From a virus: a stretch of DNA of 64,000 nucleotides. The stretch covers positions 1,052 to 65,051 of the IMG/VR virus record IMGVR_UViG_3300037502_003029; one strand, given 5' to 3'. Under the pieces are notes generated by a model. It ran no database searches, was not told where the DNA came from, and saw only the letters and a list, made by a program, of their open reading frames with translations. The position numbers and the translations under genes are program-made. Of this stretch, positions 6,703 to 48,008 are shown piece after piece (positions within the stretch are counted from its first letter, which is position 1; the number at the start of each line of letters is the position of its first letter).

Positions 6703-6826
6703 GCTTACTTACTATTTTTAATTTAAAAAAAAGAGGCTCGGTATCACACCTCTAATATATTGTCCTAAGAGTAACTATAACTTTTTGCACGAACGATGCA
6801 TGCCCGATTATTATACCGATATATTT

Positions 6827-8365
6827 TTAATATGTTACAGATGGTAACAATAATAAACACAAGTTTACGTCTTTGATTCTTGCTCCAAAAGTATCAGCAG
6901 CTACTAATTCATAACTTCTTCGCTTATGTTGAGCAGAGAATCCACCTTTACCGGATTTACCGTTGATAGGTCCAATTGGAGACCACAAACCGCAAATATA
7001 AGTAAATGCTTCTGCATCTTTTTTCTTTAACAATTCTACGTTACCGTGAGAACCTAAACCGTAATCCATTACAAAATACATGTAAGATGTTAATGGAAGT
7101 TTAGTATCAGGGTGAACAATACCACCATTTAATTCTCTATTATCAAGAATTGGTAAATGTTCAAATCGTAAAGAACCAAAAGGTAATAAATCTACTTCTA
7201 AGAAGGTAGGATTAAGTACTTTATAACCAGGACTGTTAGAACCAGGATATGCTTCACCAGATTTAACAAATTTATCCCAAGGAACTTGTACATTAAGCAT
7301 GTTATACAATTCACGAATAGAATCATGTGCTTGCATCATACCCGCTCTACCAGTTTTAACAACTATATTAGCGTTTTCTGGAGATATAGTGTCCCAACCA
7401 ACTTCTTGCATAAAATCTCTAAGAGCATCAATAGAGAAGTTACCTAAAGGATAAGTGACGATATTAGCATCTTCCATAAATTCCATGATCCCTGGACCAA
7501 TCCTTCTATGGTATCCTGAAGTCTTATCTATAATATTTTTACCAGCAGCCCTACCATACCAAATCATCAATTCTTTTTCCCATTTGGATTCTACTAAGAA
7601 TTCAGTTTCAACCCAAGATATAAGTTGTCTAGGTATTTGTTTAATCTCTAAACCCTTATCATTAACAGGTGTAAGAACTAAGTTGAGATCATGAGCTTTA
7701 TTAGTTACTTCTACAGATTTACCCCAATCGGATAACCAAGTTTTAAATCTAATATAAGAGTTATTTCCGGTAACTTGAAATGAACCATAACCTTCAGATC
7801 CTTCACTATAAGCAGCACCTACTTTAATCCATTTAAGATTTGGTTCTAACAAATCAGGATCAAAATAAGCGTTTGGATCCATTGTAACAACTTGACCAGT
7901 ATAAATATAATCCAAACCATCTTTAACAGGTAAGTATTGAATTATAATTTGCTGATCCCACGCTATTTCAGGAGCAATAATATCACCAGGTACAAAATTA
8001 GGATTATCTAATTTTACTTGTAACTCAGTAAAGTTGTGACCGGGGTATTTAACACCAGGCATCAAATTCTCTTTAGCTAAAGTTTCAATTTTACCTGAAC
8101 CTTTAAGTGACCATTCTACTTCATCCGCATCTACCGAGCGCTCTCTTCCTTGACCAATCAAAGAATCCCATAAAGTAGCTTTTTTACCACTAAGAGCTGG
8201 TCTAGCTGTAGCAGCATACTGCATAATCTTATCTGTAAGATCTGCAGCTTTTTTTGAATGAGGATGATTAACGAGTAAAACGTTTTCTGAGAAGTAATTA
8301 CCATAAGGTACTTCTTTAGCGGCTTCCTCGTATATCTCCCATTTAGTTGGTTTTAATCTTGCCAT
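6827..8365 (-). CDS. Putative major capsid protein
   Basis: 512 aa ORF directly following a scaffold-like acidic coiled-coil gene in a terminase-portal-scaffold-capsid order; the call is positional only. Confidence 0.4.
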   Translation of the reverse strand: MARLKPTKWEIYEEAAKEVPYGNYFSENVLLVNHPHSKKAADLTDKIMQYAATARPALSGKKATLWDSLIGQGRERSVDADEVEWSLKGSGKIETLAKENLMPGVKYPGHNFTELQVKLDNPNFVPGDIIAPEIAWDQQIIIQYLPVKDGLDYIYTGQVVTMDPNAYFDPDLLEPNLKWIKVGAAYSEGSEGYGSFQVTGNNSYIRFKTWLSDWGKSVEVTNKAHDLNLVLTPVNDKGLEIKQIPRQLISWVETEFLVESKWEKELMIWYGRAAGKNIIDKTSGYHRRIGPGIMEFMEDANIVTYPLGNFSIDALRDFMQEVGWDTISPENANIVVKTGRAGMMQAHDSIRELYNMLNVQVPWDKFVKSGEAYPGSNSPGYKVLNPTFLEVDLLPFGSLRFEHLPILDNRELNGGIVHPDTKLPLTSYMYFVMDYGLGSHGNVELLKKKDAEAFTYICGLWSPIGPINGKSGKGGFSAQHKRRSYELVAADTFGARIKDVNLCLLLLPSVTY

Positions 8366-9662: not shown

Positions 9663-12194
9663 TTATTTTGAATTATTTTTTGATTTTGCAGCTATTTTAG
9701 CTTTTTCTATATCTGTTTTTAATTTTTTATCAATAATCTCTCTTTCTAAATCTCTATCTCTCTCTGCATCTTTTTGTTTAAGTTCTTCAACTTGTAAAAG
9801 ATCGCTTCTACCATCTTTATCAATATCCATTTGATTAGCCATAAGCATAGCTTTGATTTTATCTCTAAATTCATTAGATTCTCTATCTAATGCTTTTTCT
9901 CTAGATAACATCTCTTGCTGTTGTTTCATCATCTCTTGCTTCATAGCCTCAAGCTGCTGTGCTTGCTGTGCTTGTTGCTCTTGCATTTGCTGTTGTCTTT
10001 GCATCATCTTTTCTTCTGCTCTCTCAGCTATATTAAGAGCATCCGCCATATTATTAGCCATTTTTAATCTAATATATTCAGGAAAAGATATCATACCATT
10101 TTGTATCATAGCTTGACTATCCATTTTAATCTCTCTAAGATTATTAAAGTCTTCAGATGAATTTCTCAAACTAATACCAATTTCTGCACTATCTATAACT
10201 TCTTTATCTAACTCTAAATCTGCTATAGACATATCATCTAATACATAAGATGCAATATAAGTATTATCTTTTAATGCAATCTTTTCATTCTCTATGTGAC
10301 GATTTAATACTCTTTCTACAATCTCATTATGTAGAGTAAATAAATCTTGTGTTTGATATGTAGATTGTTGTATATTTTGTTGACTATTTCTAACAGCTTC
10401 TGTTGGTACAATTTGACCTAATCTCTGAGGATTATAGTTCATTGCTAAAGCAGCTTGTGCTCTAATCCAATCTAATTGTTGTAAATGACCAGCAATCTCG
10501 TTAAGTTGAGTTAAATCATACTGTTTAAATATTTGAGCATCAGTACCATTTATAAGCTCATTAGAAGTATTTAAAGGTAATATTTTACCATATTTAGCCA
10601 TTCTTAACCATTGAGCATAAGTCCACCCTTCAGGTTTATAAGTATCCGCTACGGTCATTATTTTACCGATATCAGTATTTTCTTTTTCTTGGATTATAGC
10701 TAATTTGATATTAAACTTATCTTGCCAAGGTTTAGCTAAATCTAGAGGAGCTACATTTTCTGTATTATTGAATAATTTAGAAAATTTAGCACCCATAAAA
10801 GGCATCTTAATATTCCAAGGTTCTAACATGTTTTTATATTGATTAGGTACTGGACCTAAATCAAAATATAAATAAGAATCTGTAGAACCATATTCTACTC
10901 TACAACCCATATACGCATGAGGAAACCAATGAGTAGTACAATATAAATCTTTTTTAGGATTTTTCTCATAAGTACCATCCACCCATATTTCTTCATACTC
11001 ATTCTTTTCTACATTATATCTAGTTACTAATTTAAACTTTCTAAGAGATTTAAAAGCAACTGTAGTACGAGTAAATAAAGTATCATTAGGATCTATATTA
11101 CCAAATTTACGGTGTAATTCTAAAAGTACTGATTGTCCTTCTTTTGATTTAATATTTGGTAACTTATCAAAGAATCCAGTTTCTGCATCAAACTGTGCTA
11201 CTTTAGTAGCCATTGGTTCAGGAAACTCTCCTCTAGTTCTTGTAATATTGTTATTATTAGAGGGATCAAATTCTCTTAACTTAGCTATATCTTTTTCAGT
11301 AATCTCATGACCATGATCTCTAAATAGAGTAGATAAACTTATATCTTCTCTATATACTTGCCAATCCATATCTTCTTCAAATAAAGCATCAGCAGGTCCA
11401 CCAGATAAATATCCTATAGGATTAATAATTTTGGTAAATGCTTTTTTATGCTTTATACCTGATTGATATATTTGTCTACCACTAATAAGCATATGTTTAA
11501 AATTCTCATCAGTCCAAAACTTTAACTTATCTCTTCGTATAGTAAACTCAGTAATCTTTTGTAGTAATGTTTCTCTAGGAGATTTATAATCTGAAGCCAT
11601 ATACCTTTCTATATCTTTAGGTAACATGGCTTTAGATTGTTGGTCTACCTGAGATTCAAATTCCTGTTGCATTTCAGGATCTAATTCTGATGGATCTTGT
11701 ATACTATTAGCTTGCATCCATTGCTGCATTGCTGTTTGACGAGCAGGTTCTATATATTCTTGTTGTAACCAATCTTGATATAATTCTAACTTTTTCTTTT
11801 TACGATAATTAACATTATCTACAGATGAGTCTGTAACTATTGGTTTAAAAGGCATCAATTGTTGTTGACCTAATAAAGATTTACCAATAGGCGTTATAAT
11901 ATCAAAATGAGGTATATCTTCACTATTAAAGTAATAACCAGAATCTTCTATATCATCTGCTATAAATGGACTAGAAACATCAGTTTTATAAATTCCTCTA
12001 GCATTCCATAATCTATAATTTAGTAAATCTTTTTCTAAAAGATCTGGATCGACGTAATCAAATTGATCCGCATAGTAATCAATCCAATCTTTTAACCATT
12101 TCCAGTTGTTAGCTTTTTTTTGAGAATGAGTAGTTCTATGTTGGCTAACACTTTGATGACTAATTGGTACACCTAATGTATTTAATGGTTCCAT
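9663..12194 (-). CDS. Putative portal protein with Q-rich coiled-coil C-terminal extension
   Basis: 843 aa ORF immediately downstream of and abutting terL (positional); C-terminus QQQMQEQQAQQAQQLEAMKQEMMKQQQEM. Confidence 0.4.
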   Translation of the reverse strand: MEPLNTLGVPISHQSVSQHRTTHSQKKANNWKWLKDWIDYYADQFDYVDPDLLEKDLLNYRLWNARGIYKTDVSSPFIADDIEDSGYYFNSEDIPHFDIITPIGKSLLGQQQLMPFKPIVTDSSVDNVNYRKKKKLELYQDWLQQEYIEPARQTAMQQWMQANSIQDPSELDPEMQQEFESQVDQQSKAMLPKDIERYMASDYKSPRETLLQKITEFTIRRDKLKFWTDENFKHMLISGRQIYQSGIKHKKAFTKIINPIGYLSGGPADALFEEDMDWQVYREDISLSTLFRDHGHEITEKDIAKLREFDPSNNNNITRTRGEFPEPMATKVAQFDAETGFFDKLPNIKSKEGQSVLLELHRKFGNIDPNDTLFTRTTVAFKSLRKFKLVTRYNVEKNEYEEIWVDGTYEKNPKKDLYCTTHWFPHAYMGCRVEYGSTDSYLYFDLGPVPNQYKNMLEPWNIKMPFMGAKFSKLFNNTENVAPLDLAKPWQDKFNIKLAIIQEKENTDIGKIMTVADTYKPEGWTYAQWLRMAKYGKILPLNTSNELINGTDAQIFKQYDLTQLNEIAGHLQQLDWIRAQAALAMNYNPQRLGQIVPTEAVRNSQQNIQQSTYQTQDLFTLHNEIVERVLNRHIENEKIALKDNTYIASYVLDDMSIADLELDKEVIDSAEIGISLRNSSEDFNNLREIKMDSQAMIQNGMISFPEYIRLKMANNMADALNIAERAEEKMMQRQQQMQEQQAQQAQQLEAMKQEMMKQQQEMLSREKALDRESNEFRDKIKAMLMANQMDIDKDGRSDLLQVEELKQKDAERDRDLEREIIDKKLKTDIEKAKIAAKSKNNSK

Positions 12195-14530
12195 TAATAT
12201 TTGTAGTATTGTTTAGTTAATAAAGTATTTCTTTTCGTAGTAAGTTGATTATAAAAATCATTTATAGTTTCTTTAGCTAGTTCACTACTTTGTTTTATAG
12301 GTACTTCTTTAGTTTGTTTAATCCATAACATAATTAATTTTAATGATGTTATATGGTCAAGTTTTGTTTTGTTTTCTCTAGTGTAAGCTATTAGTTGTTG
12401 AAGAATCATAGGTGATTTTAGCTTATTAAGGTTTAATAATTTAACACCATTTTCTTCTTTCCATTCAGTTAATAACCATTGTCTTATTAATTGTTCTGAT
12501 TGCTCATGTAACGCTGGAGAAGTCATATCTATACCAACATCATATTTTTTACCAGGGTTTTTAATAGAATCAGATATTGCTTTATAAGGTTTAGCCTGTA
12601 ATAAATGAGCATAACCTTCTCTTTTACAATAACGCACAAAATCCGGTATGTTTGTTTCTACCATTATTTTGGCATTATACATGATAGCTAATTGTACACA
12701 CAACTCATGTACATCCTCTACTCTATCCATCCTTCCTATATATTCTGCTACAATATCATCACTTAATCCTGTAGCCCAATTATTCTCCGATACTCCTTTA
12801 TACACTATTATAGAAGCTAATGATGGACCATCACCATCGTCCCTAACAGGGTCATATCCTATTTTATATAAAGAACTATTTTGATCTGGATTTGGTATAT
12901 TTGGTTCTGGAGCTTCATAAAATACTACCGCACCTTTTAGATTATTTTTGTATTGGTCTCTATTTAAACTTATAATAGGAATCAATCTATTTTGTAAATC
13001 TACTTCAAATATAACATCTGATTTATCTTTATTCCATTTTAGTTCACCAGTATAAGATAGTGTTTTAAATACATCTCTTATTTCTACATAAGTTAACTGT
13101 TCTCTTAATTTAGATATAGGAAATATATTTAACTGACCAGATAAAAACATTTCTGATGGTACAATAGGTCTATCCATCATATAAGCATCTAAAGCATAAT
13201 TGTTATCAGCTTTAGCTTTATCTGCTCGTATTCTCATTTCTTCCTCAAAAGCTGCTTCTAAATCTTGATTACCGTTTTCATCTCTAAATGAGTTATCAAC
13301 ATAATAACCAGGAATAAATAATCCAATAGGTTTTTTTCTACCTTCCCATAAATCAGGAAATCCTAAAAATAAATATTGTTCTGGATTCTCAAATACTGTT
13401 TTAGTATCATGAATCTTTTCCATATTACCTGCTGTACCAATACACAAATGAGAACCAAATTTATTATTTCTTTTTAAACCTGGTTCGTTAGCACCTAATA
13501 TTTTTAATAAATTAGTTACCAAACCCACCTCTTCTATAATAGAAGCTAAAGGTCCTTGTCCTACTGATGCTTCAGGATTATCTTCATAAGTAACGTGTAC
13601 TAAACGAGTACCTTTACCTTTTTTGATATCTACTCCGTTTACTTTCTCTATGTATTCATTTCTATATGGAGATTTTTGATTAGATGTGGTTAAACTACCT
13701 GATACTTGTTGATAAAACCATCCAGGTATAAAATTATCATCTTCTCCCCATGCACCAAAATTATTTTTATGGTATTCCTCTAAAAATGAAAAGTGCTTTA
13801 ATGTATCTGCAGATTTACCTAATACAGAACCAATAACAATTGCTGGTCCTCTCTTTAAGTTAAAATATTCTTCATCAAACCTAATAGCACCATGAAACTT
13901 AAATATATGAGAAAGTATTGCTACTAACCACATGGATTTACCTTGTCGTCTACTTGTAAGAACCATTATATTTAATGATTCATTTTCATATACTGGTAAA
14001 CCTAATGGTTTATCATGAGTTTTATATAAATATTCTCTAGGATCTATATATTTTTTATAACTACCATCTTTTTTATAGATATGTTTAAAATTCTTTAATT
14101 GAATTTTATCTTTAGTAGTTAATAACTCACCTGTTTCTATCTTTCTTAAAATATTATTACAACTATATTCTTCATCACCATCAAATCCGCTAAAACCTCT
14201 ACATATAAGCCAGTTATAAAAAAATAACCACTCTACATCTCGTAGTAGTGGTAAATCAATTCTAATTGAATTGGATATAGGATCTTCTTGCTCTATTGGA
14301 CAAAATGTAGAATACCAATATAGTTGTGGAGTACCATATCTCCAACCACCTTCTTGTGTTACTTCATCTTTATCTAATCCCCAATATCCTTCTACACATC
14401 TCCTTTCTTGCTCATTCCAATAATCACTATAATCTTTACTCTCTGGATGATATTCTGGATGATCCTTTATTAAAAAAGGTTTTAGATTATGGATTTTAGG
14501 AAATAATCTTACTACTTTAGCTTCACTCAT
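12194..14530 (-). CDS. terL: Terminase large subunit
   Basis: Walker A-like LTSRRQGKSMW (compare T4 gp17 SRQLGKT); 778 aa; placed upstream of portal/scaffold/capsid. Confidence 0.65.
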   Translation of the reverse strand: MSEAKVVRLFPKIHNLKPFLIKDHPEYHPESKDYSDYWNEQERRCVEGYWGLDKDEVTQEGGWRYGTPQLYWYSTFCPIEQEDPISNSIRIDLPLLRDVEWLFFYNWLICRGFSGFDGDEEYSCNNILRKIETGELLTTKDKIQLKNFKHIYKKDGSYKKYIDPREYLYKTHDKPLGLPVYENESLNIMVLTSRRQGKSMWLVAILSHIFKFHGAIRFDEEYFNLKRGPAIVIGSVLGKSADTLKHFSFLEEYHKNNFGAWGEDDNFIPGWFYQQVSGSLTTSNQKSPYRNEYIEKVNGVDIKKGKGTRLVHVTYEDNPEASVGQGPLASIIEEVGLVTNLLKILGANEPGLKRNNKFGSHLCIGTAGNMEKIHDTKTVFENPEQYLFLGFPDLWEGRKKPIGLFIPGYYVDNSFRDENGNQDLEAAFEEEMRIRADKAKADNNYALDAYMMDRPIVPSEMFLSGQLNIFPISKLREQLTYVEIRDVFKTLSYTGELKWNKDKSDVIFEVDLQNRLIPIISLNRDQYKNNLKGAVVFYEAPEPNIPNPDQNSSLYKIGYDPVRDDGDGPSLASIIVYKGVSENNWATGLSDDIVAEYIGRMDRVEDVHELCVQLAIMYNAKIMVETNIPDFVRYCKREGYAHLLQAKPYKAISDSIKNPGKKYDVGIDMTSPALHEQSEQLIRQWLLTEWKEENGVKLLNLNKLKSPMILQQLIAYTRENKTKLDHITSLKLIMLWIKQTKEVPIKQSSELAKETINDFYNQLTTKRNTLLTKQYYKY

Positions 14531-15691: not shown

Positions 15692-15706
15692 GCTATTTTA
15701 TTTAAG

Positions 15707-15778
15707 CGGGATATAAGAGAATCGAACTCTTATTACACGATAGACAGTCGTGGGTAATAACCATTATACCAATATCCC
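15707..15778 (-). tRNA. tRNA-Asp (anticodon GTC)
   Basis: Folded by hand: acceptor GGGATAT/ATATCCC, D-arm with GG, anticodon stem CACGA/TCGTG with loop CTGTCTA, T-arm AAGAG-TTCGATT-CTCTT. Confidence 0.75.
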
Positions 15779-15780
15779 AG

Positions 15781-15857
15781 TGGTAGCAGATGTGAGAATC
15801 AAACTCACCTTTATATAGGTTATGAGACTGATAAGTTCACCAGAACTTTAATCTGCG
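15781..15857 (-). ncRNA. tRNA-like RNA with encoded CCA but no foldable anticodon arm (pseudo-tRNA or Y-RNA-like tRNA mimic)
   Basis: Acceptor CGCAGAT/ATCTGCT (6 bp), U8-A9, D-stem AAGT/ACTT with GG, T-stem GTGAG/CTCAC with loop TTTGATT, 3' ACCA. No 5-bp stem could be found around the CTCATAA loop. Confidence 0.4.
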
Positions 15858-28155: not shown

Positions 28156-28316
28156 TCAAAATATGTCTAAAGAAAAAGAACCCATGTTAATTACATTAAC
28201 TGAGGCAATTAGAATATATGAAGAAGAAGAGAAAAAGAAAAAAAATAAAAAAAAAAAACTCAGCTAGGGAGAGTATAAAATTTTTTGCTGACGAGACCTA
28301 GACGAATAAAGACCGA

Positions 28317-28375
28317 AGACCTATAAGAAGAATCATAACCAAAGAGTATTATAGGTCTTTTTTTAATTAACTAAC
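28317..28375 (+). terminator. 10-bp perfect stem AGACCTATAA...TTATAGGTCT (32-nt loop) plus T7; terminator or small structured RNA
   Basis: Seen in sequence. Confidence 0.4.
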
Positions 28376-28389
28376 AAAAATAACAAAAG

Positions 28390-30054
28390 ATGTTTAACAG
28401 CAAACAAACTCAACTAATTTCAAAAGATGAAACTAAACAAAAAACATCTGCTTTTGTTAATGCTGGTTTAAAAAAATCAGCAGAAACAACTTCAGGTAAT
28501 GGTGCTTTAAAATATAGCACTACTGGTAATGATTTTGTAGATCAATTTGGTAAACTTGGTTCATATAAATCACCAAGAAGTTTTGAAGATATATCTCGTG
28601 ATATGTCTACATTATGGGCTCAAAACGCCTTACTTACTGTATGTTTTGTATTTTTTATAAGAATGATAACTCGTGTAGTTCAGTTCTTTGATAATACTAA
28701 AACATCAACTGTACAACGTGGAGCAGGATTAAAACATGAAGGTATTTTTAGAATGATATGGATTCATATACATCATAAAGATACCTTTTGGAAAAACATA
28801 TCATTATGGATTTCTATAGGTAGCTGGAAAGATATTATAACCATGCTCTCTTATGATCTTCAATATAATGGATGGAAAGATAGAAAATTAGATTGGGATA
28901 GTTTTGGTAAACTAATTTTAGCAGGATTAGAAAATCCTAATACTGTTAATTTAGTAAAAAAATATTTACCACAAATAAAATCTAACTCACAATGTACAAC
29001 ATTAGAAGCGCAAGCTGATAATATAATTGCAAAGTGGATATGTTCTTTATTATTTGGTAGTAAAGAAACTCCATCTAGTTATAAAAAATATAGAAAACTT
29101 AAAGCTTCAGGTACAGCGCATCAATGGCAGCAATTAATATCTCAACGTAAGCATAATCTTATTGATTTTAATACTGTTCACGGTAGAGCACTATCTCAAT
29201 TAGTATCTAGTAAATATTTGAAAAATCAAGGTTTAGAAGCTAAATATCAGAAGTGGATAGAATCTAAACCTATAGCTAAATTTACTGGATATGTACATGA
29301 ATTGTTTCACAAACTACCTCAAACAAAATATCAAATAGATACTTTAAATGCTCAATTTAATGGATTAGTAGAAACAGCAAAAAAAAATGCTACAACTGCT
29401 ACATCTATGATTGTAGTTAGAGATACATCTTATTCTATGAGAAGTTTTGCAACTGGTACTAATATGGCATGTTATAACGTTGCAAAAGCTCTTGCTTTGT
29501 TTTTTAGTGAAATGCTACCTAATGGTGCATTTGCTAATTCATGGATTGAATTTAATTCAAGTGCAAAAATGCGTACATGGAAAGGATCTACTCCATATGA
29601 AAAATGGACAAATGATACATCCAGTTATATTGGTAGTACAAACTTTCAATCAGTAATAAAACTTTTTTGTAATATTAAAGAGCAAGGAATCTCTGAATCA
29701 GAATTTCCAACAGGTATTATCTGTATAAGTGATAGTGAATTTAATCCTGCAGGTTTAAATAAGACTAATGTACAAACCGCCTTATCTACTTTAAGAAAAG
29801 AAGGTTTTTCTGAAGAATATGTTTCTAATTTTAAAATAGTTCTTTGGAATTTACAATCTAAAGCATATGGAGGAGCAGGAAATAAATTTGAAACCTATGG
29901 TAATGTACCTAATGTTTATTACTTTAGTGGTTTTGATGGTTCTATTGTAGCATTTCTCACTGGAGTAGAAGGTAAAACTTTTACACCAAGCACTGCTGAA
30001 GAATTATTTTTAGCAGCAATGGATCAAGAGATTTTGAAAAAGATAGTAGTATAA
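28390..30054 (+). CDS. vWA/MIDAS-domain protein with Ro60/Rsr-like architecture (N-terminal helical ~330 aa, C-terminal vWA)
   Basis: MIDAS IVVRDTSYSM (DxSxS) at about aa 340 of 554; the size and domain order match TROVE+vWA Ro60 orthologues. The TROVE assignment itself is inferred and not verified. Confidence 0.4.
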   Translation: MFNSKQTQLISKDETKQKTSAFVNAGLKKSAETTSGNGALKYSTTGNDFVDQFGKLGSYKSPRSFEDISRDMSTLWAQNALLTVCFVFFIRMITRVVQFFDNTKTSTVQRGAGLKHEGIFRMIWIHIHHKDTFWKNISLWISIGSWKDIITMLSYDLQYNGWKDRKLDWDSFGKLILAGLENPNTVNLVKKYLPQIKSNSQCTTLEAQADNIIAKWICSLLFGSKETPSSYKKYRKLKASGTAHQWQQLISQRKHNLIDFNTVHGRALSQLVSSKYLKNQGLEAKYQKWIESKPIAKFTGYVHELFHKLPQTKYQIDTLNAQFNGLVETAKKNATTATSMIVVRDTSYSMRSFATGTNMACYNVAKALALFFSEMLPNGAFANSWIEFNSSAKMRTWKGSTPYEKWTNDTSSYIGSTNFQSVIKLFCNIKEQGISESEFPTGIICISDSEFNPAGLNKTNVQTALSTLRKEGFSEEYVSNFKIVLWNLQSKAYGGAGNKFETYGNVPNVYYFSGFDGSIVAFLTGVEGKTFTPSTAEELFLAAMDQEILKKIVV

Positions 30055-30355
30055 ATCAAAACGAAGTAACAGAAAGAATTGGTGTATATAGCACATCTGT
30101 TATTTTTTTACATGGGGGATAATAGGCAATCGACTAATAATAAAAAATATACAATCAGCAGTGAGAATGGTAGTAGTCTCACTATAATAACTTATACCAA
30201 ACATTAAATGGCAATTTATTTAACAAATTGACTGAAGGTGCTAAAGTAGTATCTTTGGTTTCAAGTTTTAAACCACAAGTAGCAGTTGCTGCTTGATCTT
30301 GAGCAAACAAAGGTTTTTTATAATTTCTCTATTTTAGTATTAATATAAATAGAGT

Positions 30356-30480
30356 GGTGGATGCTTAACCGTACTGGTTAGCCCTTTTTATTCTTGTAGG
30401 TAGTAAAAGAACCTTCATTAAGCTGTATAAATTGTATATCGTATATTATTAACACACGGGTTCGAGTCCCGTATCCTCCA
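30356..30480 (+). ncRNA. tRNA-like/Y-RNA-like element
   Basis: Canonical T-arm ACGGG-TTCGAGT-CCCGT at 30456-30472 and acceptor 3' strand ATCCTCC+A. The only complementary 5' strand is GGTGGAT, 111 nt upstream. An internal hairpin CTTTT...AAAAG is present. Confidence 0.35.
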
Positions 30481-30505
30481 CAAATAAGCAAATTATAGTT
30501 TTTAT

Positions 30506-30578
30506 TGACTCATAGTGTAATGGTTTAGCACCACAGTTTTTGAAGCTGTTAGTTTAGGTTCAAATCCTAATGAGTCAT
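30506..30578 (+). tRNA. tRNA-Gln (anticodon TTG)
   Basis: Acceptor TGACTCA/TGAGTCA, D-stem GTGT/GCAC, anticodon stem ACAGT/GCTGT with loop TTTTGAA, T-arm TTAGG-TTCAAAT-CCTAA. Confidence 0.8.
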
Positions 30579-30599
30579 CACTTTATTAAATTTTAAATC

Positions 30600-31067
30600 A
30601 TGAAAAATGATATAGTTGTATTAAATAAAAATCATGTTGGTAAATATATATCTTTTTATTATAATAATCTTTTTTATGATAAAGGTCTTATTGTAAAAGA
30701 AAACGATATTATATATATATTAAATAACTGTCGTTCTAATAGTAATAAACATAGAATATCTAAAAATAAATATAAATATTCTTTAAGATTTGATGCGTGG
30801 GAGTATTTGAATAGTTGCATAAAAAATATAAAAATACTTGATAATGAATCATCTTTAGCATCAGATATAGAATCTAAAAAAGTTAATTCATTAGATATAC
30901 CAATATCATATATTAATTGTATTCCAGATATAATTATTTCTAAAATAGATAAAACTATAAAAACTGATATAAATATACCTAATATAGATATTCCTAAAAA
31001 GAGTTTAAAAATAAAGTTTTTTTTGAAAAATATTATTACACAACCAATTAAAAAAATCCATATATAA
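30600..31067 (+). CDS. Hypothetical protein
   Basis: ORF track. Confidence 0.4.
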   Translation: MKNDIVVLNKNHVGKYISFYYNNLFYDKGLIVKENDIIYILNNCRSNSNKHRISKNKYKYSLRFDAWEYLNSCIKNIKILDNESSLASDIESKKVNSLDIPISYINCIPDIIISKIDKTIKTDINIPNIDIPKKSLKIKFFLKNIITQPIKKIHI

Positions 31068-32711: not shown

Positions 32712-32780
32712 GGAAATCTTACAGCAAATTAATAACAATTTTGTTCGACCATATTTAAATTAAATTTTATATAGATTTCC
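32712..32780 (+). ncRNA. Structured RNA unit A (terminal helix GGAAATCT/AGATTTCC; ACAGCAAATTAATA box)
   Basis: Perfect 8-bp inverted repeat closing a 69-nt unit; conserved box directly 3' of the 5' strand. Confidence 0.5.
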
Positions 32781-32785
32781 GATAA

Positions 32786-32850
32786 GAACAGTTACAGCAA
32801 ATTAATACAAGCACCAAACTTTTAATTTGACACGCTAATTAATACTGTTC
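32786..32850 (+). ncRNA. Structured RNA unit B (GAACAGT/ACTGTTC; ACAGCAAATTAATA box)
   Basis: As unit A; GATAAG linker on both sides. Confidence 0.5.
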
Positions 32851-32855
32851 TGATA

Positions 32856-32964
32856 AGTACACACACAGCAAATATTAAAAAAAACGGATCAACAACATTA
32901 ATTTCTATTTAATACTTGTAAATCCTAGTTGGTTCAAATCCAGCAGGTTGAAATAAAGTGTACT
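32856..32964 (+). ncRNA. Structured RNA unit C (AGTACAC/GTGTACT) containing anticodon-like hairpin ATTTA-ATACTTG-TAAAT and T-arm GTTGG-TTCAAAT-CCAGC
   Basis: Seen in sequence. Confidence 0.5.
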
Positions 32965-32968
32965 GATA

Positions 32969-33104
32969 AAGATAGTAACAGCAACTTTTATGTTAAAGAA
33001 GATCTGTGGGTCACAAGTTCAAATCTTGTATTCTTATGTAAATAAGAATTAGCTCAGTTGGTAGAGCAATGGAATAAAACAAAATACTATCTTGTTTTTT
33101 TTTT
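32969..33104 (+). ncRNA. Structured RNA unit D (AAGATAGTA/TACTATCTT, then T10) with circularly permuted tRNA module: T-arm + acceptor 3' strand ATTCTTA, 6-nt spacer, acceptor 5' strand TAAGAAT + canonical D-arm AGCTCAGTTGGTAGAGC
   Basis: Seen in sequence; both acceptor strands are perfectly complementary but in reversed gene order. Confidence 0.5.
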
Positions 33105-33746: not shown

Positions 33747-33820
33747 AGATATCATACAGCAAATTAAAAATATTTAAACACAAAAATAGGGATTTTGCAA
33801 GTTTTTATAAAATGATATCT
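33747..33820 (+). ncRNA. Structured RNA unit U2 (AGATATCAT/ATGATATCT; ACAGCAAATTAAAAA box)
   Basis: Perfect 9-bp terminal helix. Confidence 0.5.
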
Positions 33821-33828
33821 GTTTAATA

Positions 33829-33926
33829 AATTCTCATACAGCAAGTATATATATAAAAAAATCTTTTTCTAAACAAAAGCGAAGCCTGGATGGTGGGTAT
33901 TAAGGGTTCGATTCCCTACGAGAATT
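33829..33926 (+). ncRNA. Structured RNA unit U3 (AATTCTCAT/ACGAGAATT, 8 of 9 bp) containing T-arm-like AGGG-TTCGATT-CCCT
   Basis: Seen in sequence. Confidence 0.45.
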
Positions 33927-33931
33927 GATAA

Positions 33932-33992
33932 GAGTACATACAGCAAATTTAAAAACACCCTGATTTATAATTTGGTTATGTAAAATGTACTC
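33932..33992 (+). ncRNA. Structured RNA unit U4 (GAGTACAT/ATGTACTC; ACAGCAAATTTAAAAA box)
   Basis: Perfect 8-bp terminal helix. Confidence 0.5.
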
Positions 33993-33997
33993 TGATA

Positions 33998-34070
33998 AGA
34001 AGCGAAACAGCAAATTAATTATAGGACTAGACTTTTAATCTAACATTCTAAATAATCGCTTCTGTTTTTT
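33998..34070 (+). ncRNA. Structured RNA unit U5 (AGAAGCGA/TCGCTTCT, then T6) with anticodon-like loop CTTTTAA on stem TAGA/TCTA
   Basis: Seen in sequence. Confidence 0.5.
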
Positions 34071-46341: not shown

Positions 46342-46980
46342 ATGTTTGATTTTAGTAAAAAAAGTGAAGGTGGAAATCAAAAAGTAGATTTCCCATTAGG
46401 AATTGCAGTAGATAATGTAGTTTTAAGAAATATTGAAGTAAATCGTAATATCTTAGGATTACAATTTAATTTTCAAAGAGTGTTAAATGGTACTATAGCG
46501 TTTTTATCAGATACCTTATTACCACCTAAACAAGAGTGGTTTACAGAAGATAAACAAATAGGAGATAAACTTTTATCTGCTGAAGAGCAATATAATTTGC
46601 AAATACGTGTATTTTCAGGTTATGTAAGACATTTATTAACTAATTGTGGTTTAGATAATAATGATTTAGCAAAAGTACCACCTTCTGAAGATTTGAAGGA
46701 ATATTTAATAAAATTTTGTGAGATTATTAATCCTATTATTGAAAGAAAAAGAATACCTGTATACTTAAAAACAGTAGTTGATAAGCAAGGGTATATTAAA
46801 TTACCTAAATTTAGAGGCAAAGGTGTAGCATCTCCTATGGATGCTGGTAAACCAGCTTTTGAGTATAGTGAGTATGAATTAGAACTTATACAAGGTTCTA
46901 GAAAGGAAGGAGTAGAAGAAGTTACTCAAGCAGGAGATAATACTCCTAAAGCTACTACAGGTACAGGTATGGATTTTTAA
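46342..46980 (+). CDS. Hypothetical protein
   Basis: ORF track. Confidence 0.4.
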   Translation: MFDFSKKSEGGNQKVDFPLGIAVDNVVLRNIEVNRNILGLQFNFQRVLNGTIAFLSDTLLPPKQEWFTEDKQIGDKLLSAEEQYNLQIRVFSGYVRHLLTNCGLDNNDLAKVPPSEDLKEYLIKFCEIINPIIERKRIPVYLKTVVDKQGYIKLPKFRGKGVASPMDAGKPAFEYSEYELELIQGSRKEGVEEVTQAGDNTPKATTGTGMDF

Positions 46981-47004
46981 AATCTGTTATTAATTAATTT
47001 TAAT

Positions 47005-47038
47005 AAGCAGGGGGAGAAATCCTCCTGCTTTTTTTTTA
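47005..47038 (+). terminator. Terminator (AGCAGG...CCTGCT then T9)
   Basis: Seen in sequence. Confidence 0.5.
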
Positions 47039-47039
47039 T

Positions 47040-48008
47040 ATGATAGATATAAATGATTTTGAAGTAAATCTTAGCGATTTAAATGGTAAAGTATCTGATG
47101 AAGATATATATTATCATTATTTAGGAGATTTTGAAGATAATAGTTGGTTTTCTGCTCCTTGGAGAAGCGATACTGATCCTTCATTACGAATTTCTTATTA
47201 TAAAAACAGATGGGTATGGACTGATTTTGGAGAAGATAATAGACCTAAACATGCTATCAATTTTGTAATGCGTTTATACAATATAACGTATTTTGAAGCA
47301 TTAGAAAGAATTTATAAAGAAGTATATTTAAATAATGAACCTAATAACAAAAGTAAATCAGTAATTAAAACTGAATCAACATCTTATTGTAAGATAAGAC
47401 AAGAATTTTTTACTTTTGAGTTAGATTATTGGAAACCTGCGGATATAACTAAACAAGATTTACTGTATTGGGATATATATTCAGGAGAAATAAGACATAA
47501 TGGTAGAGTATGGCATCAATCTAAAGAATCTGATCCATTATTTATATATATGTTTGATAAAAAAATTCCAATATATAAAGGTTATAGACCATATGCTAAA
47601 GATAAACATTGTAAATTTTATGCTAAAAATGTATCAAATCATATACAAGGTTTAGATAAATTAACAGGTAAATCAAAAATATTAATCATAACTAAAAGTT
47701 ATAAAGATGTAATAGTTTGGAACAAATTAGGATATGATGCTATAGCTCCTCATACGGAAAATATGTTTATAAGTCCTTTTGATTTTTATGATTTACAATT
47801 AAAATATCCTATAATATATGTAAATTATGATAACGATGATGTAGGTGTAAAAAAGTCAATAGAATATACTAATATGTATGGTATTAATTACTTTAATATT
47901 CCTTTAAGTACATGCTGTAAAGATGTGTTTGAATTTGTATGTAATAACTCTTATAAGGAATTAGATGAATTATTTAAACAAAAATTAAAAAGAGATAATG
48001 TCTATTAA
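47040..48008 (+). CDS. Hypothetical protein; weak primase-like (TOPRIM-like) features
   Basis: Sits in the replication block after the DnaB-like helicase; no zinc-finger Cys seen; low confidence. Confidence 0.25.
   Translation: MIDINDFEVNLSDLNGKVSDEDIYYHYLGDFEDNSWFSAPWRSDTDPSLRISYYKNRWVWTDFGEDNRPKHAINFVMRLYNITYFEALERIYKEVYLNNEPNNKSKSVIKTESTSYCKIRQEFFTFELDYWKPADITKQDLLYWDIYSGEIRHNGRVWHQSKESDPLFIYMFDKKIPIYKGYRPYAKDKHCKFYAKNVSNHIQGLDKLTGKSKILIITKSYKDVIVWNKLGYDAIAPHTENMFISPFDFYDLQLKYPIIYVNYDNDDVGVKKSIEYTNMYGINYFNIPLSTCCKDVFEFVCNNSYKELDELFKQKLKRDNVY

What the first reader, a model, noticed from the sequence alone, without database searches (positions are those of the whole stretch)
30356..30480. 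tRNA 3' half with a distant 5' acceptor strand next to the Ro60-like gene
A perfect T-arm (ACGGG-TTCGAGT-CCCGT) and acceptor 3' strand ATCCTCC-A are present, but no contiguous tRNA 5' half. The only complementary 5' strand (GGTGGAT) is 111 nt upstream, followed by a D-arm-like segment (TTAA...GG...TTAG) and an internal CTTTT/AAAAG hairpin. Three readings are possible: a Y-RNA-like tRNA mimic with a long terminal stem, a tRNA interrupted by a ~50-nt intron-like insert, or an att-site-like tRNA fragment. A canonical tRNA-Gln follows 26 nt downstream.
Basis: seen in the sequence. Interest (0 to 1): 0.6.

Follow-up and report, generated by a model that had tools for sequence, protein, structure and literature searches.

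The report
Phage tmRNA gene, not a split tRNA
The "orphan tRNA 3' half" is the end of a complete 367-nt transfer-messenger RNA (ribosome-rescue RNA) gene carried by a crAss-like phage; standard tools miss it, but it is a known kind of gene.

Summary
The T-arm (30456-30472) and acceptor 3' strand ATCCTCC-A (30473-30480) are real. Their partner is not GGTGGAT at 30356. It is GGGGGAT at 30114-30120, which gives seven pairs including the alanine-identity G3·U70.

30114-30480 has every tmRNA landmark:
- a D-loop analogue, AAUAGGCAAUCGAC;
- a 21-bp interrupted P2 helix;
- a pseudoknot before a GGC resume codon;
- a 28-codon tag, GNLFNKLTEGAKVVSLVSSFKPQVAVAA-stop.

Detection is weak. Rfam tmRNA matches full length at 23.4 bits (gathering score 47; E 1.6e-5 window-wide), and ARAGORN finds nothing. 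Relatives that share the neighbouring Ro60-like gene carry tmRNAs scoring 27-83 bits. Across 24 phage tmRNAs the acceptor and T stems pair in 100% of cells, with compensatory changes, and the window fits.

That strand does not covary with the acceptor 3' strand.

Verdict: a new member of a known kind (phage-encoded tmRNA), with an unusually long tag.

More novel things lie nearby. The neighbouring protein (DUF2828/DUF7788) models as Ro60. Its likely RNA partners are arrays of stem+ACAGCAA small RNAs, one of them YrlA-like, at 32.7-34.1 kb. The same motif also sits on the protein's own start codon.

The parts
30114..30483 (+). tmRNA (ssrA) gene. The mature RNA is predicted to be 30114-30480 plus a post-transcriptionally added CCA; the genome reads CAA at 30481-30483.
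   Evidence: Rfam RF00023 matches full length (model 1-374) at 30115-30483, 23.4 bits, E 1.4e-7 locally and 1.6e-5 window-wide. The MFE fold recovers the acceptor stem, P2 and T-arm, z -3.1. An identical copy occurs in an independent sample, L133.
30114..30120 (+). Acceptor-stem 5' strand GGGGGAU
   Evidence: Pairs 7/7 with AUCCUCC (30473-30479), with G3·U70. Across 24 phage tmRNAs this stem is 100% paired, G3·U is invariant, and pairs 5-7 change by compensatory substitutions.
30121..30134 (+). D-loop analogue AAUAGGCAAUCGAC (conserved GG and UCGAC, no D stem)
   Evidence: Aligns to the Rfam tmRNA consensus 'AucuGGaUUCGAC'. The same layout is seen in the ARAGORN-called phage tmRNAs.
30135..30159 (+). 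P2 helix, 5' strand: P2a 30135-30142, P2b 30147-30155, P2c 30156-30159
   Evidence: Perfect complements lie at 30444-30451, 30431-30439 and 30422-30425. A spliced 5'+3' construct folds like those of bona fide phage tmRNAs. All 8 P2a pairs covary.
30161..30199 (+). Pseudoknot PK1: stem 1 GUGAGA 30161-30166 / UCUCAC 30177-30182; stem 2 UGGUA 30168-30172 / UACCA 30195-30199
   Evidence: Complementarity read from the sequence. Stem 1 is in the MFE fold. Not tested by covariation.
30210..30296 (+). Tag reading frame: resume codon GGC at 30210, 28 codons, stop UGA at 30294-30296. Peptide GNLFNKLTEGAKVVSLVSSFKPQVAVAA.
   Evidence: Translation. The context 'UAAAU|GGC AAU' matches 'UAACU|GGC AAU' in relatives whose tags ARAGORN calls. 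The C-terminal 17 residues align with the tag of L128's ARAGORN-called tmRNA: 41% identical, 82% similar, E 2e-4.
30278..30296 (+). Helix-5-like hairpin enclosing the end of the tag and the stop codon (AGUAGCAG / CUGCUUGA)
   Evidence: MFE fold; coordinates. Inferred, not tested by covariation.
30327..30409 (+).
   Evidence: This block aligns with the same block of ARAGORN- or Rfam-validated tmRNAs (L001, L012, L110 and others; nhmmer E 1e-6 to 1e-2; alignment). The GUGGUGGA motif sits at the same relative position in 25 of the 38 distinct tmRNA sequences checked, plus three near-variants.
30422..30451 (+). P2 helix, 3' strand (GCUG, AUUGUAUAU, UAUUAUUA), within the conserved 'UAAGCUGUAUAAA' block
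30456..30472 (+). T-arm ACGGG-UUCGAGU-CCCGU
   Evidence: The T stem is 100% paired with two covarying pairs across 24 phage tmRNAs.
30473..30480 (+). Acceptor-stem 3' strand AUCCUCC plus discriminator A
30506..30579 (+). tRNA-Gln(UUG), 25 nt downstream; probably co-transcribed and co-processed with the tmRNA
   Evidence: ARAGORN and Rfam, 62.1 bits. In relatives too, tmRNAs lie close to tRNA genes: 7 nt in L125, 10 nt in L128, 216 nt in L001.
28390..30054 (+). Upstream neighbour: Ro60-like protein (Pfam DUF7788; relatives also carry DUF2828), 554 aa. Context, not part of the tmRNA.
   Evidence: Pfam and PHROG matches. AF2 model with pLDDT 82.6. The top six PDB Foldseek matches are Ro60/Rsr over the full length.

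Best explanation
The segment is the 3' end of a phage-encoded transfer-messenger RNA gene, window 30114-30480. The window is a crAss-like phage genome.

Shown here:
- The 5' end GGGGGAU pairs with AUCCUCC to form a 7-bp acceptor stem with G3·U70 and discriminator A73.
- With the T-arm and a stem-less D-loop analogue, this makes the tRNA-like domain.
- A long interrupted helix (P2) joins that domain to a ring of hairpins and pseudoknots.
- The ring carries a short open reading frame that starts without an AUG at GGC 30210 and ends at UGA 30294.

Inferred from established tmRNA biology:
- The precursor is transcribed together with tRNA-Gln and trimmed by RNase P at G30114 and by 3' nucleases after A30480. 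It receives CCA from the host CCA-adding enzyme, because the genome encodes CAA.
- Host alanyl-tRNA synthetase charges it with alanine through G3·U70.
- With host SmpB and EF-Tu it enters ribosomes stalled on broken or stop-less mRNAs and accepts the nascent chain.
- The ribosome then switches to the tag frame. This adds Ala plus GNLFNKLTEGAKVVSLVSSFKPQVAVAA, terminates normally and recycles the ribosome.
- The ...AVAA end resembles the ...ALAA degron read by ClpXP-type proteases.
- During infection this would keep ribosomes available when host mRNA is being degraded, and would mark abortive products with a phage-specified tag.

They are not a second acceptor strand.
For: - Rfam tmRNA aligns end to end (model 1-374) at 30115-30483, E 1.4e-7 locally and 1.6e-5 for the whole window.
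- All landmark helices are perfect complements in the sequence, and the unconstrained MFE fold contains them (z -3.1).
- Relatives found through the neighbouring Ro60-like gene carry tmRNAs near that gene, spanning the same score range:
  - L125: 83.3 bits.
  - L001: 52.8 bits, also called by ARAGORN.
  - L136: 37.6 bits.
  - L128: 26.9 bits, yet called by ARAGORN.

- The window's 3' half is homologous by sequence to those tmRNAs and to about 20 other ARAGORN-called phage tmRNAs (nhmmer; alignment).
- On an ungapped alignment of 24 distinct phage tmRNAs, 90.4% of cells pair, against 68.7% in shuffles (0/500 reach it) and 46-56% when partners are slid. The acceptor and T stems are 100% paired, G3·U is invariant, and 13 pairs change on both sides. 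The window's GGGGGAU/AUCCUCC fits this pattern.
- The tag frame is supported by the shared resume context UAAnU|GGC AAU, by the AVAA-stop ending, and by amino-acid similarity to L128's tag.
- An identical copy exists in an independent run, so this is not an assembly artefact.
- Phage-encoded ssrA is a documented phenomenon (PMC4131195, PMC7162821).
Against: - The Rfam score (23.4 bits) is below the family's gathering score (47), and the hit carries a large composition bias term (18.8).
- ARAGORN does not call the gene even at a 60% threshold.
- PK1, helix 5 and the distal pseudoknots are read from one sequence or from an MFE fold. They were not tested by covariation.
- The 28-residue tag is much longer than the 8-11 residues of the short-tag phage tmRNAs found here.
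- CCA is not encoded.
- No SmpB-like ORF was found in the window.
- Expression, charging and trans-translation are all inferred.
Confidence: 0.9

Rival explanations
1. A tmRNA-derived RNA that no longer performs productive trans-translation. It would act as a decoy, for example by titrating host SmpB or occupying stalled ribosomes to block host ribosome rescue, or it would be decaying.
For: The score is sub-threshold and ARAGORN is silent. The tag is unusually long. There is a published precedent: the mycobacteriophage DS6A ssrA is little more than the tRNA-like domain, and such molecules inhibit tmRNA (PMC4131195).
Against: All modules are intact, including an open 28-codon frame with a degron-like AVAA end. 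That end is conserved at the amino-acid level with a relative. Acceptor identity elements are preserved. Relatives with equally low Rfam scores are still called by ARAGORN (L128).
Confidence: 0.07
2. An intron-containing or long-insert tRNA-like gene spanning 30356-30481, with GGUGGAU as the acceptor 5' strand.
For: ARAGORN with introns allowed and its threshold lowered to 80% reports tRNA-Lys(CUU) with a 30-nt intron over exactly this span. 6 of 7 acceptor pairs are possible.
Against: Nothing is found at default thresholds, and there is no Rfam tRNA hit. There is a U·U mismatch at pair 3, and positions 8-9 read GC. In relatives the internal strand fails to covary with the acceptor 3' strand: positions 5-7 pair in 33%, 67% and 50% of sequences, against 100% for the true 5' strand. 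The whole block is homologous to the pseudoknot region of validated tmRNAs.
Confidence: 0.015
3. A Y-RNA-like (YrlA-type) tRNA mimic bound by the adjacent Ro60-like protein.
For: The neighbour is Ro60-like by fold. YrlA RNAs contain T-arm and D-arm mimics and lie next to Ro60 genes in bacteria and phages (PMC4201824).
Against: Rfam YrlA gives no hit in 30100-30650 even at E<=10. The YrlA-like module and the stem+ACAGCAA units that accompany this gene in all relatives lie elsewhere in the window, at 32713-33097 and 33748-34062. A covariance model of those units finds nothing in 30055-30600.
Confidence: 0.015
4. An attP-type remnant of a host tRNA or tmRNA 3' end.
For: The 3' ends of tRNA and tmRNA genes are common integration sites, so isolated 3' halves occur in phages (general knowledge).
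Against: The 3' half is not isolated, because a complete gene with a matching 5' end is present. The window was not searched for an integrase, so its absence cannot be stated.
Confidence: 0.01

Closest known systems
Bacterial one-piece tmRNA (ssrA; Rfam RF00023)
   Same: Acceptor stem with G3·U70 and A73; T-arm; stem-less D-loop analogue GG...UCGAC; long P2 helix; PK1 before a non-AUG resume codon; tag ending in ...AA-stop; the conserved 'UAAGC(A)UGUA' 3' strand of P2.
   Different: It is encoded by a phage. G+C is 32%. It scores 23.4 bits against a gathering score of 47, and ARAGORN does not see it. The tag is 28 residues, against about 10 in E. coli (from general knowledge). CCA is not encoded. 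It carries a conserved GUGGUGGA motif that was not found with this T-loop and 3' end in any ARAGORN-called tmRNA among 185,579 species genomes.
Previously reported phage tmRNAs (mycobacteriophages Bxz1, Cali, Catera and others; Bacillus phage G; huge phages)
   Same: An ssrA gene carried by a virulent phage, among tRNA genes (PMC4131195, PMC7162821).
   Different: A different phage group: crAss-like, by capsid, portal and terminase. I found no paper that describes tmRNA in crAss-like phages beyond mentions in annotation pipelines. The tag is long.
Long-tag phage tmRNAs in IMG/VR and metagenomes (found here)
   Same: The same 5' and 3' architecture, and tags of 20-32 residues ending in AA. Examples: L128 DNDNKQIEANMKKVISLINTNKLELKLAA, L136 GKTIELSAYTPESLLAELEAPALLAA, L001 GGTEVSKDLNTIMVEEDLLMAA, L028 AEDIMSIPTSLTRGRSVFVESAELIAA.
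   Different: Sequences are highly divergent. Only the 3' half is alignable by nhmmer, and the tag sequence is specific to each lineage.
YrlA / bacterial Y RNA (Rfam RF02553)
   Same: A tRNA-like T-arm next to a Ro60-type gene.
   Different: In YrlA the T-arm, acceptor-like stem and D-arm are contiguous and permuted inside a Ro-binding terminal stem. There is no tag frame and no G3·U acceptor closed by the RNA's own ends. The model does not match the segment under review.

Membership tests
tmRNA (ssrA) | 7-bp acceptor stem formed by the RNA's 5' and 3' ends, with a G3·U70 pair and discriminator A | tested here: met
   GGGGGAU 30114-30120 pairs with AUCCUCC 30473-30479, followed by A30480. The pair fits the covariation seen in 24 phage tmRNAs.
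tmRNA (ssrA) | T-arm (5-bp stem, 7-nt GUUCRANUC-type loop) directly 5' of the acceptor 3' strand | tested here: met
   ACGGG-UUCGAGU-CCCGU at 30456-30472.
tmRNA (ssrA) | D-loop analogue without a D stem (GG ... UCGAC) after the acceptor 5' strand | tested here: met
   AAUAGGCAAUCGAC aligns to the Rfam consensus.
tmRNA (ssrA) | Long helix P2 joining the tRNA-like domain to the mRNA and pseudoknot ring | tested here: met
   8 + 9 + 4 perfect pairs. It is present in the MFE fold and in spliced-construct folds of 23 phage tmRNAs. P2a covaries.
tmRNA (ssrA) | Pseudoknot PK1 immediately upstream of the resume codon | tested here: inconclusive
   Two interleaved stems (6 bp and 5 bp) can be drawn. 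Only stem 1 appears in the MFE fold. No covariation test was made.
tmRNA (ssrA) | Internal tag reading frame without an AUG, ending in a hydrophobic ...AA C-terminus plus stop | tested here: met
   GNLFNKLTEGAKVVSLVSSFKPQVAVAA*. The resume context is shared with relatives. The tag C-terminus is similar to L128's.
tmRNA (ssrA) | Reaches the curated detection thresholds (Rfam gathering score; ARAGORN) | tested here: not met
   23.4 bits against 47. ARAGORN finds nothing down to 60%. This is a detection criterion, not a biological one. Relative L128 scores 26.9 bits yet is called by ARAGORN, and L136 scores 37.6 bits and is missed by ARAGORN.
tmRNA (ssrA) | Alanylation, SmpB/EF-Tu binding and tagging of stalled nascent chains | not testable with these tools
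   Needs biochemistry or proteomics.
YrlA / Y RNA | Contiguous T-arm, acceptor-like stem-loop and D-arm module inside a terminal protein-binding stem, matching RF02553 | tested here: not met
   There is no RF02553 hit in 30100-30650 at E<=10. The model does hit 32989-33097 in the same window (28.2 bits).
Intron-containing tRNA | Cloverleaf with acceptor, D, anticodon and T arms detectable once the insert is removed; acceptor pairs maintained in relatives | tested here: not met
   ARAGORN -i at default settings finds nothing, and reports a hit only at -ps80. There is no Rfam tRNA hit. The proposed 5' strand does not covary.
attP-type tRNA/tmRNA fragment | A truncated 3' portion only, identical to the host gene's 3' end, with an integrase nearby | tested here: not met
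   The gene is full length. Host identity and an integrase were not examined.

The most novel reading that the evidence does not exclude
The tmRNA may be one component of a phage 'RNA island' organised around a Ro60-like (DUF2828/DUF7788) protein.

- That protein's ligands would be the tandem small RNAs of the form 'terminal stem + ACAGCAA ... UGAUAA'. There are at least eight in this window and four to eight in most relatives. Some carry T-arms or a full YrlA-like tRNA mimic.
- The protein would repress its own translation through a copy of the same stem+ACAGCAA element laid over its start codon (28389-28454).
- The tmRNA could be coupled to this system. Its conserved (G)UGGUGGA is a perfect complement of the mature 3' end UCCACCA, so it could sequester or present the CCA end. 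The ring protein could act on tmRNA or tRNA ends during infection.
- The units also resemble Dictyostelium Class I RNAs (6-bp terminal stem, CCUUACAGCAA motif, about 60 nt, 3' CUGU), whose function is unknown. This raises the possibility that DUF2828-type proteins are the missing partner class.
Probability: 0.12. Interest if true: 0.8.

Novelty: new member of a known kind. Interest (0 to 1): 0.4.

Why it matters
For the finding itself:
- It adds a tmRNA to a crAss-like phage.
- It shows that a family of A+T-rich, long-tag phage tmRNAs escapes the two standard detectors, ARAGORN and the Rfam gathering score. Phage tmRNA counts from annotation pipelines are therefore underestimates.
- The long tags are conserved in part at the amino-acid level. 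They suggest that phages write their own C-terminal tag onto abortive proteins, which can be tested by proteomics.

For the locus:
- The check uncovered a candidate Ro60-like RNP system: a DUF2828/DUF7788 protein, arrays of stem+ACAGCAA RNAs that include YrlA-like units, and a likely autoregulatory copy on the gene's start.
- I did not find this system described. It would give a function to a widespread domain of unknown function.

Tried and rejected
- ARAGORN on the region at thresholds from default down to 60% made no tmRNA call on the + strand. At 60% it gave only a spurious permuted call on the minus strand.
- The phage GenBank collection (blastn, distant mode) has no relative of the locus apart from a 366-bp protein-level echo in a Leptolyngbya phage.
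- An exact pattern built from the GUGGUGGA block found only L001's own contig in IMG/VR.
- MAFFT on spliced 5'+3' constructs mis-registered the 5' ends (A2). I replaced it with an ungapped, landmark-anchored alignment (A3).
- nhmmer with the single window tmRNA aligns only the 3' half to relatives and misses L125 and L128 altogether.
- SmpB search: phmmer against all window ORFs of 80 aa or more found nothing.
- Pfam TROVE and direct PDB sequence searches of the neighbouring protein gave no hit. Only the fold comparison showed Ro60.
- Foldseek against afdb50, intended to ask whether Dictyostelium has a DUF2828 homologue, was unavailable.
- A literature search for DDB_G0281243 gave nothing beyond the preprint already found.
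- The genome-contig scan for the motif plus T-loop plus 3' end gave 7 hits, none an ARAGORN tmRNA. The host lineage therefore stays unknown.
- The hammerhead-like element upstream of the Ro60-like gene is not conserved in relatives.
Full report
**Observation.**
- ACGGG-TTCGAGT-CCCGT at 30456-30472, then ATCCTCC at 30473-30479 and A at 30480.
- GGTGGAT at 30356-30362.
- A TAACC/GGTTA hairpin at 30366-30380 and a CTTTT/AAAAG hairpin at 30384-30409.
- tRNA-Gln(UUG) at 30506-30579.

No tool calls a canonical tRNA over the span. One statement is wrong: GGTGGAT is not the only complementary 5' strand. It pairs 6 of 7 with a central U·U mismatch (-5.6 kcal/mol). GGGGGAT at 30114-30120 pairs 7 of 7 with a G·U at position 3 (-9.1 kcal/mol).

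**What it is.**
- A permissive Rfam scan of 30100-30650 aligned the tmRNA model RF00023 end to end (model 1-374) to 30115-30483. The score is 23.4 bits, E 1.4e-7. In a scan of the whole window the E-value is 1.6e-5.
- Read against the consensus, every landmark is present:
  - the 5' end GGGGGAU followed by AAUAGGCAAUCGAC (consensus GGGGnnn...GGaUUCGAC);
  - a long helix P2 made of three perfect segments (UAAUAAUA/UAUUAUUA, AUAUACAAU/AUUGUAUAU, CAGC/GCUG), with the 3' strand in the conserved 'UAAGCUGUAUAAA' block;
  - a possible PK1 (GUGAGA/UCUCAC interleaved with UGGUA/UACCA);
  - an A-rich stretch ending in UAAAU;
  - an open frame from GGC 30210 to UGA 30294, encoding GNLFNKLTEGAKVVSLVSSFKPQVAVAA.
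- An unconstrained MFE fold of 30114-30483 recovers the acceptor stem, P2, PK1 stem 1 and the T-arm. Its z-score against dinucleotide shuffles is -3.1.

**Context.**
- The window is a crAss-like phage genome. It has a Crass_capsid protein at 6827-8365(-), a portal at 9663-12194(-) and a large terminase at 12194-14530(-). G+C is 22-34%.
- The tmRNA lies 60 nt after the stop of a 554-aa ORF (28390-30054) and 25 nt before tRNA-Gln.
- The identical locus occurs in an independent sequencing run (L133, 100% over 546 nt).

**Relatives.** I fetched loci that encode relatives of the upstream protein from IMG/VR, JGI metagenomes, and Logan and ENA assemblies.
- Several carry tmRNAs near that gene, close to tRNA genes, at variable positions:

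| Locus | Position | Rfam bits | ARAGORN | Tag |
|---|---|---|---|---|
| L001 | 6806-7206 | 52.8 | called | GGTEVSKDLNTIMVEEDLLMAA |
| L125 | 2463-2845 | 83.3 | called | APKAVELELAA |
| L128 | 7370-7690 | 26.9 | called | DNDNKQIEANMKKVISLINTNKLELKLAA |
| L136 | 747-1236 | 37.6 | missed | GKTIELSAYTPESLLAELEAPALLAA (read by eye) |

- The window's 23.4 bits therefore sits at the low end of a continuous range for this A+T-rich family. ARAGORN's silence is shared by at least one other member.
- The window's tag aligns with L128's over its last 17 residues: KVVSLVSSFKPQVAVAA against KVISLINTNKLELKLAA, 82% similar, pairwise E 2e-4.
- The window shares the resume context UAAnU|GGC AAU with the GNTSYRVAA group.

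**Covariation.**
- A scan of IMG/VR for GGGTTCGAGTCCC-N5-CTCCACAA returned more than 119 loci. ARAGORN calls a tmRNA in 43 of them (44 calls counting L001 from the earlier search), and many have tags of 20-32 residues.
- From 24 distinct sequences I built an ungapped alignment anchored on landmarks: 7 nt of the 5' end, 8 nt after GAY, and the last 37 nt (A3).
- On the structure acceptor + P2a + T stem:
  - 90.4% of cells pair, against 68.7 ± 1.5% in shuffles (0 of 500 reach it) and 46-56% when partners are slid by 1-3 columns;
  - the acceptor and T stems pair in 100% of cells;
  - G3·U is invariant;
  - acceptor pairs 5-7 use 3-4 pair types each.
- The window's G5-C, A6-U and U7-A fit this pattern.
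- Spliced 5'+3' constructs of 23 tmRNAs, the window among them, mostly fold into the same architecture of acceptor, long P2 and T-arm.

- The block 30327-30409 is homologous to the distal pseudoknot region of the validated tmRNAs (nhmmer E 1e-6 to 1e-2; alignment). It comprises hairpin CUCUAUUU/AAAUAGAG, GUGGUGGA, hairpin UAACC/GGUUA, CCC, and hairpin CUUUU/AAAAG.
- GUGGUGGA is conserved at the same relative position in 25 of the 38 distinct tmRNA sequences checked, with near-variants in three more. The two hairpins change sequence but keep their pairing. For example, UAACC/GGUUA corresponds to UUGUC/GACAA, and CUUUU/AAAAG corresponds to GUGG/CCAC or GCAG/CUGC (read).
- In relatives the internal strand does not follow the acceptor 3' strand. 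Position 3 is always U·U, and positions 5-7 pair in only 33%, 67% and 50% of sequences. The true 5' strand pairs in 100%.
- With introns allowed, ARAGORN reports nothing at default settings. Only at an 80% threshold does it report a 'tRNA-Lys(CUU) with a 30-nt intron' at 30356-30481.
- Rfam YrlA does not match the segment at E<=10.
- The three proposed readings are therefore not supported.

**Mechanism.**
- Shown: the anatomy, the identity elements (G3·U70, A73), the tag frame, and conservation.
- Inferred from established tmRNA biology: co-transcription with tRNA-Gln; RNase P and 3' trimming; CCA addition (the genome has CAA); alanylation by host AlaRS; delivery by SmpB and EF-Tu to stalled ribosomes; template switching at GGC; addition of a 29-residue tail (Ala plus 28 coded residues) ending in AVAA; then termination and ribosome recycling.
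- I found no SmpB in the window, but the test was weak. Use of host SmpB is assumed.
- Phage ssrA genes are known in mycobacteriophages, Bacillus phage G and huge phages (PMC4131195, PMC7162821).
- I found no description of one in crAss-like phages.

**An unexplained detail.** (G)UGGUGGA is the exact complement of the mature 3' end UCCACCA (-10.6 kcal/mol). Both are invariant in this family, so covariation cannot test a pairing between them. In 185,579 species genomes the combination of this motif, this T-loop and CTCCA occurs 7 times, and none of those is an ARAGORN-called tmRNA. The subfamily therefore looks phage-borne, with the caveat that the pattern was exact.

**Side finding: a Y-RNA-like system exists, but elsewhere.**
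- The protein:
  - Pfam calls it DUF7788. Many of its 2,496 homologues also carry DUF2828. None is called TROVE.
  - An AlphaFold model (pLDDT 82.6) has Ro60/Rsr structures as its six best PDB matches, over the full length (Foldseek E 5e-6 to 3e-4, TM 0.24-0.49).
- The RNAs:
  - Downstream of this gene in most relatives, and at 32713-33092 and 33748-34062 in the window, lie head-to-tail arrays of units with one design. Each has an 8-nt strand of variable sequence, then ACAGCAA, a variable body, the complement of the 8-mer, and UGAUAA. The last unit of an array ends in a U-run instead.
  - 74 of 105 ACAGCAA sites have a closing stem of at least 6 bp followed by TG. The figure is 3.75% for random positions and 3.1% for permuted 7-mers. 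The motif occurs 105 times on the + strand and 17 times on the - strand.
  - Long units contain T-arms or a YrlA-like module. In the window this is RF02553 at 32989-33097, 28.2 bits. Relatives score 30-41 bits.
- The gene's own start:
  - A covariance model built from 47 short units (R1) finds three non-training hits in the window at E<=5e-5.
  - One is 28389-28454, which covers the start codon and first 21 codons of the Ro60-like gene (35.4 bits, E 4e-5).
  - That element, GAUGUUUA-ACAGCAA...AAAACAUC-UG, is conserved in most relatives. This suggests translational autoregulation.
- Resemblance to Dictyostelium Class I RNAs:
  - Rfam weakly labels the units Dicty_Class_I_RNA (up to 33 bits against a gathering score of 41.5).
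  - The published features of those RNAs are about 60 nt, a 6-bp terminal stem, an adjacent CCUUACAGCAA motif and a 3' CUGU (PMC7919456). The similarity is striking, but it may be coincidence.

**Verdict.** The finding is a genuine, complete, phage-encoded tmRNA gene that standard detectors miss. It is a new member of a known kind with an unusually long tag, and its interest is moderate. The neighbouring Ro60-like gene and its ACAGCAA-unit RNA arrays are the more novel lead and deserve their own follow-up.

Noticed in passing
window 32713-33092 and 33748-34062 (units 32713-32779, 32786-32850, 32857-32963, 32970-33092, 33748-33819, 33830-33925, 33932-33992, 33999-34062): There are two head-to-tail arrays of small structured RNA units. 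Each unit has a 6-8-bp terminal stem of variable sequence, ACAGCAA directly after the 5' strand, and UGAUAA (or a U-run at the array's end) directly after the 3' strand. The same arrays follow the Ro60-like gene in most relatives. 74 of 105 ACAGCAA sites have the closing stem, against 3.75% of random positions.
   Followed up: partly
window 32970-33097: One long unit holds a YrlA-like permuted tRNA mimic: T-arm CAAGUUCAAAUCUUG, stem AUUCUU/AAGAAU, and D-arm UAGCUCAGUUGGUAGAGC. Rfam RF02553 matches full length at 28.2 bits (gathering score 69), E 0.061 window-wide and 5e-4 locally. Similar hits of 30-41 bits occur in L002, L003, L125, L131, L132, L136, L137 and L138.
   Followed up: partly
window 28389-28454: The start codon and first 21 codons of the Ro60-like gene form a unit of the same design (GAUGUUUA-ACAGCAA...AAAACAUC-UG). 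It scores 35.4 bits, E 4e-5, with a model not trained on it, and it is conserved in most relatives. It is a candidate site for translational autoregulation by the encoded protein.
   Followed up: partly
window 28390-30054: The 'Ro60-like' protein is Pfam DUF7788 (relatives also DUF2828), not TROVE. It has 2,496 homologues in metagenomes. An AlphaFold model (pLDDT 82.6) has Ro60/Rsr as its six best PDB matches over the full length.
   Followed up: yes
window 32718-32852; L002 6012-6138; L004 6428-6735; L136 3239-3578: Rfam weakly labels the ACAGCAA units as Dictyostelium Class I RNA (RF01414; 19-33 bits against a gathering score of 41.5). Class I RNAs are about 60 nt, with a 6-bp terminal stem, an adjacent CCUUACAGCAA motif and a 3' CUGU, and they are described as unique to dictyostelids (PMC7919456). 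I could not test whether dictyostelids have a DUF2828 protein, because afdb50 was unavailable.
   Followed up: partly
window 32786-32850, 33999-34062; L004, L128, L132, L134, L137: A recurrent unit subtype (7 of 47 short units, two of them in this window) has an internal hairpin with the 7-nt loop CUUUUAA and often a UCAAA/UUUGA stem. From general knowledge, CUUUUAA is the sequence of a tRNA-Lys(UUU) anticodon loop. This could be an anticodon-arm mimic or chance in A+T-rich sequence.
   Followed up: no
window 30354-30361, and the same position in 25 of 38 distinct phage tmRNAs: The conserved motif GUGGUGGA in the distal pseudoknot region is the exact complement of the mature 3' end UCCACCA (-10.6 kcal/mol). 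Both are invariant, so covariation cannot test a pairing. The motif was not found with this T-loop and 3' end in any ARAGORN-called tmRNA of 185,579 species genomes.
   Followed up: partly
window 28257-28344 (+): A hammerhead-ribozyme-like element sits just upstream of the Ro60-like gene. It matches RAGATH-1 hammerhead RF03152 at 49 bits (gathering score 56.3), E 3.8e-5, and includes CUGACGAG...CGAA. It is not conserved upstream of the gene in relatives.
   Followed up: partly
L136 747-1236; L125 2463-2845; L128 7370-7690; L001 6806-7206: Relatives carry tmRNAs at different positions around the Ro60-like gene, each near a tRNA gene. L136's tmRNA is missed by ARAGORN (Rfam 37.6 bits). Tags are 11-29 residues long.
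   Followed up: yes
IMG/VR loci L007-L124: Of more than 119 viral contigs matching GGGTTCGAGTCCC-N5-CTCCACAA, 43 have ARAGORN-called tmRNAs. Several tag families recur (GNTSYRVAA/DNTYRVAA; AEDIMSIPTSLTRG...AA; others of 20-32 residues). Long-tag tmRNAs therefore seem common in uncultivated phages.
   Followed up: partly
window 15784-15857 (-): A sub-threshold tRNA-like hit (RF00005, 26.2 bits against a gathering score of 29) lies directly next to tRNA-Asp at 15706-15778.
   Followed up: no
window 46922-47042 (+): A sub-threshold L20_leader-like hit (RF00558, 36.7 bits against a gathering score of 58.7, E 0.0015) lies in an intergenic gap.
   Followed up: no
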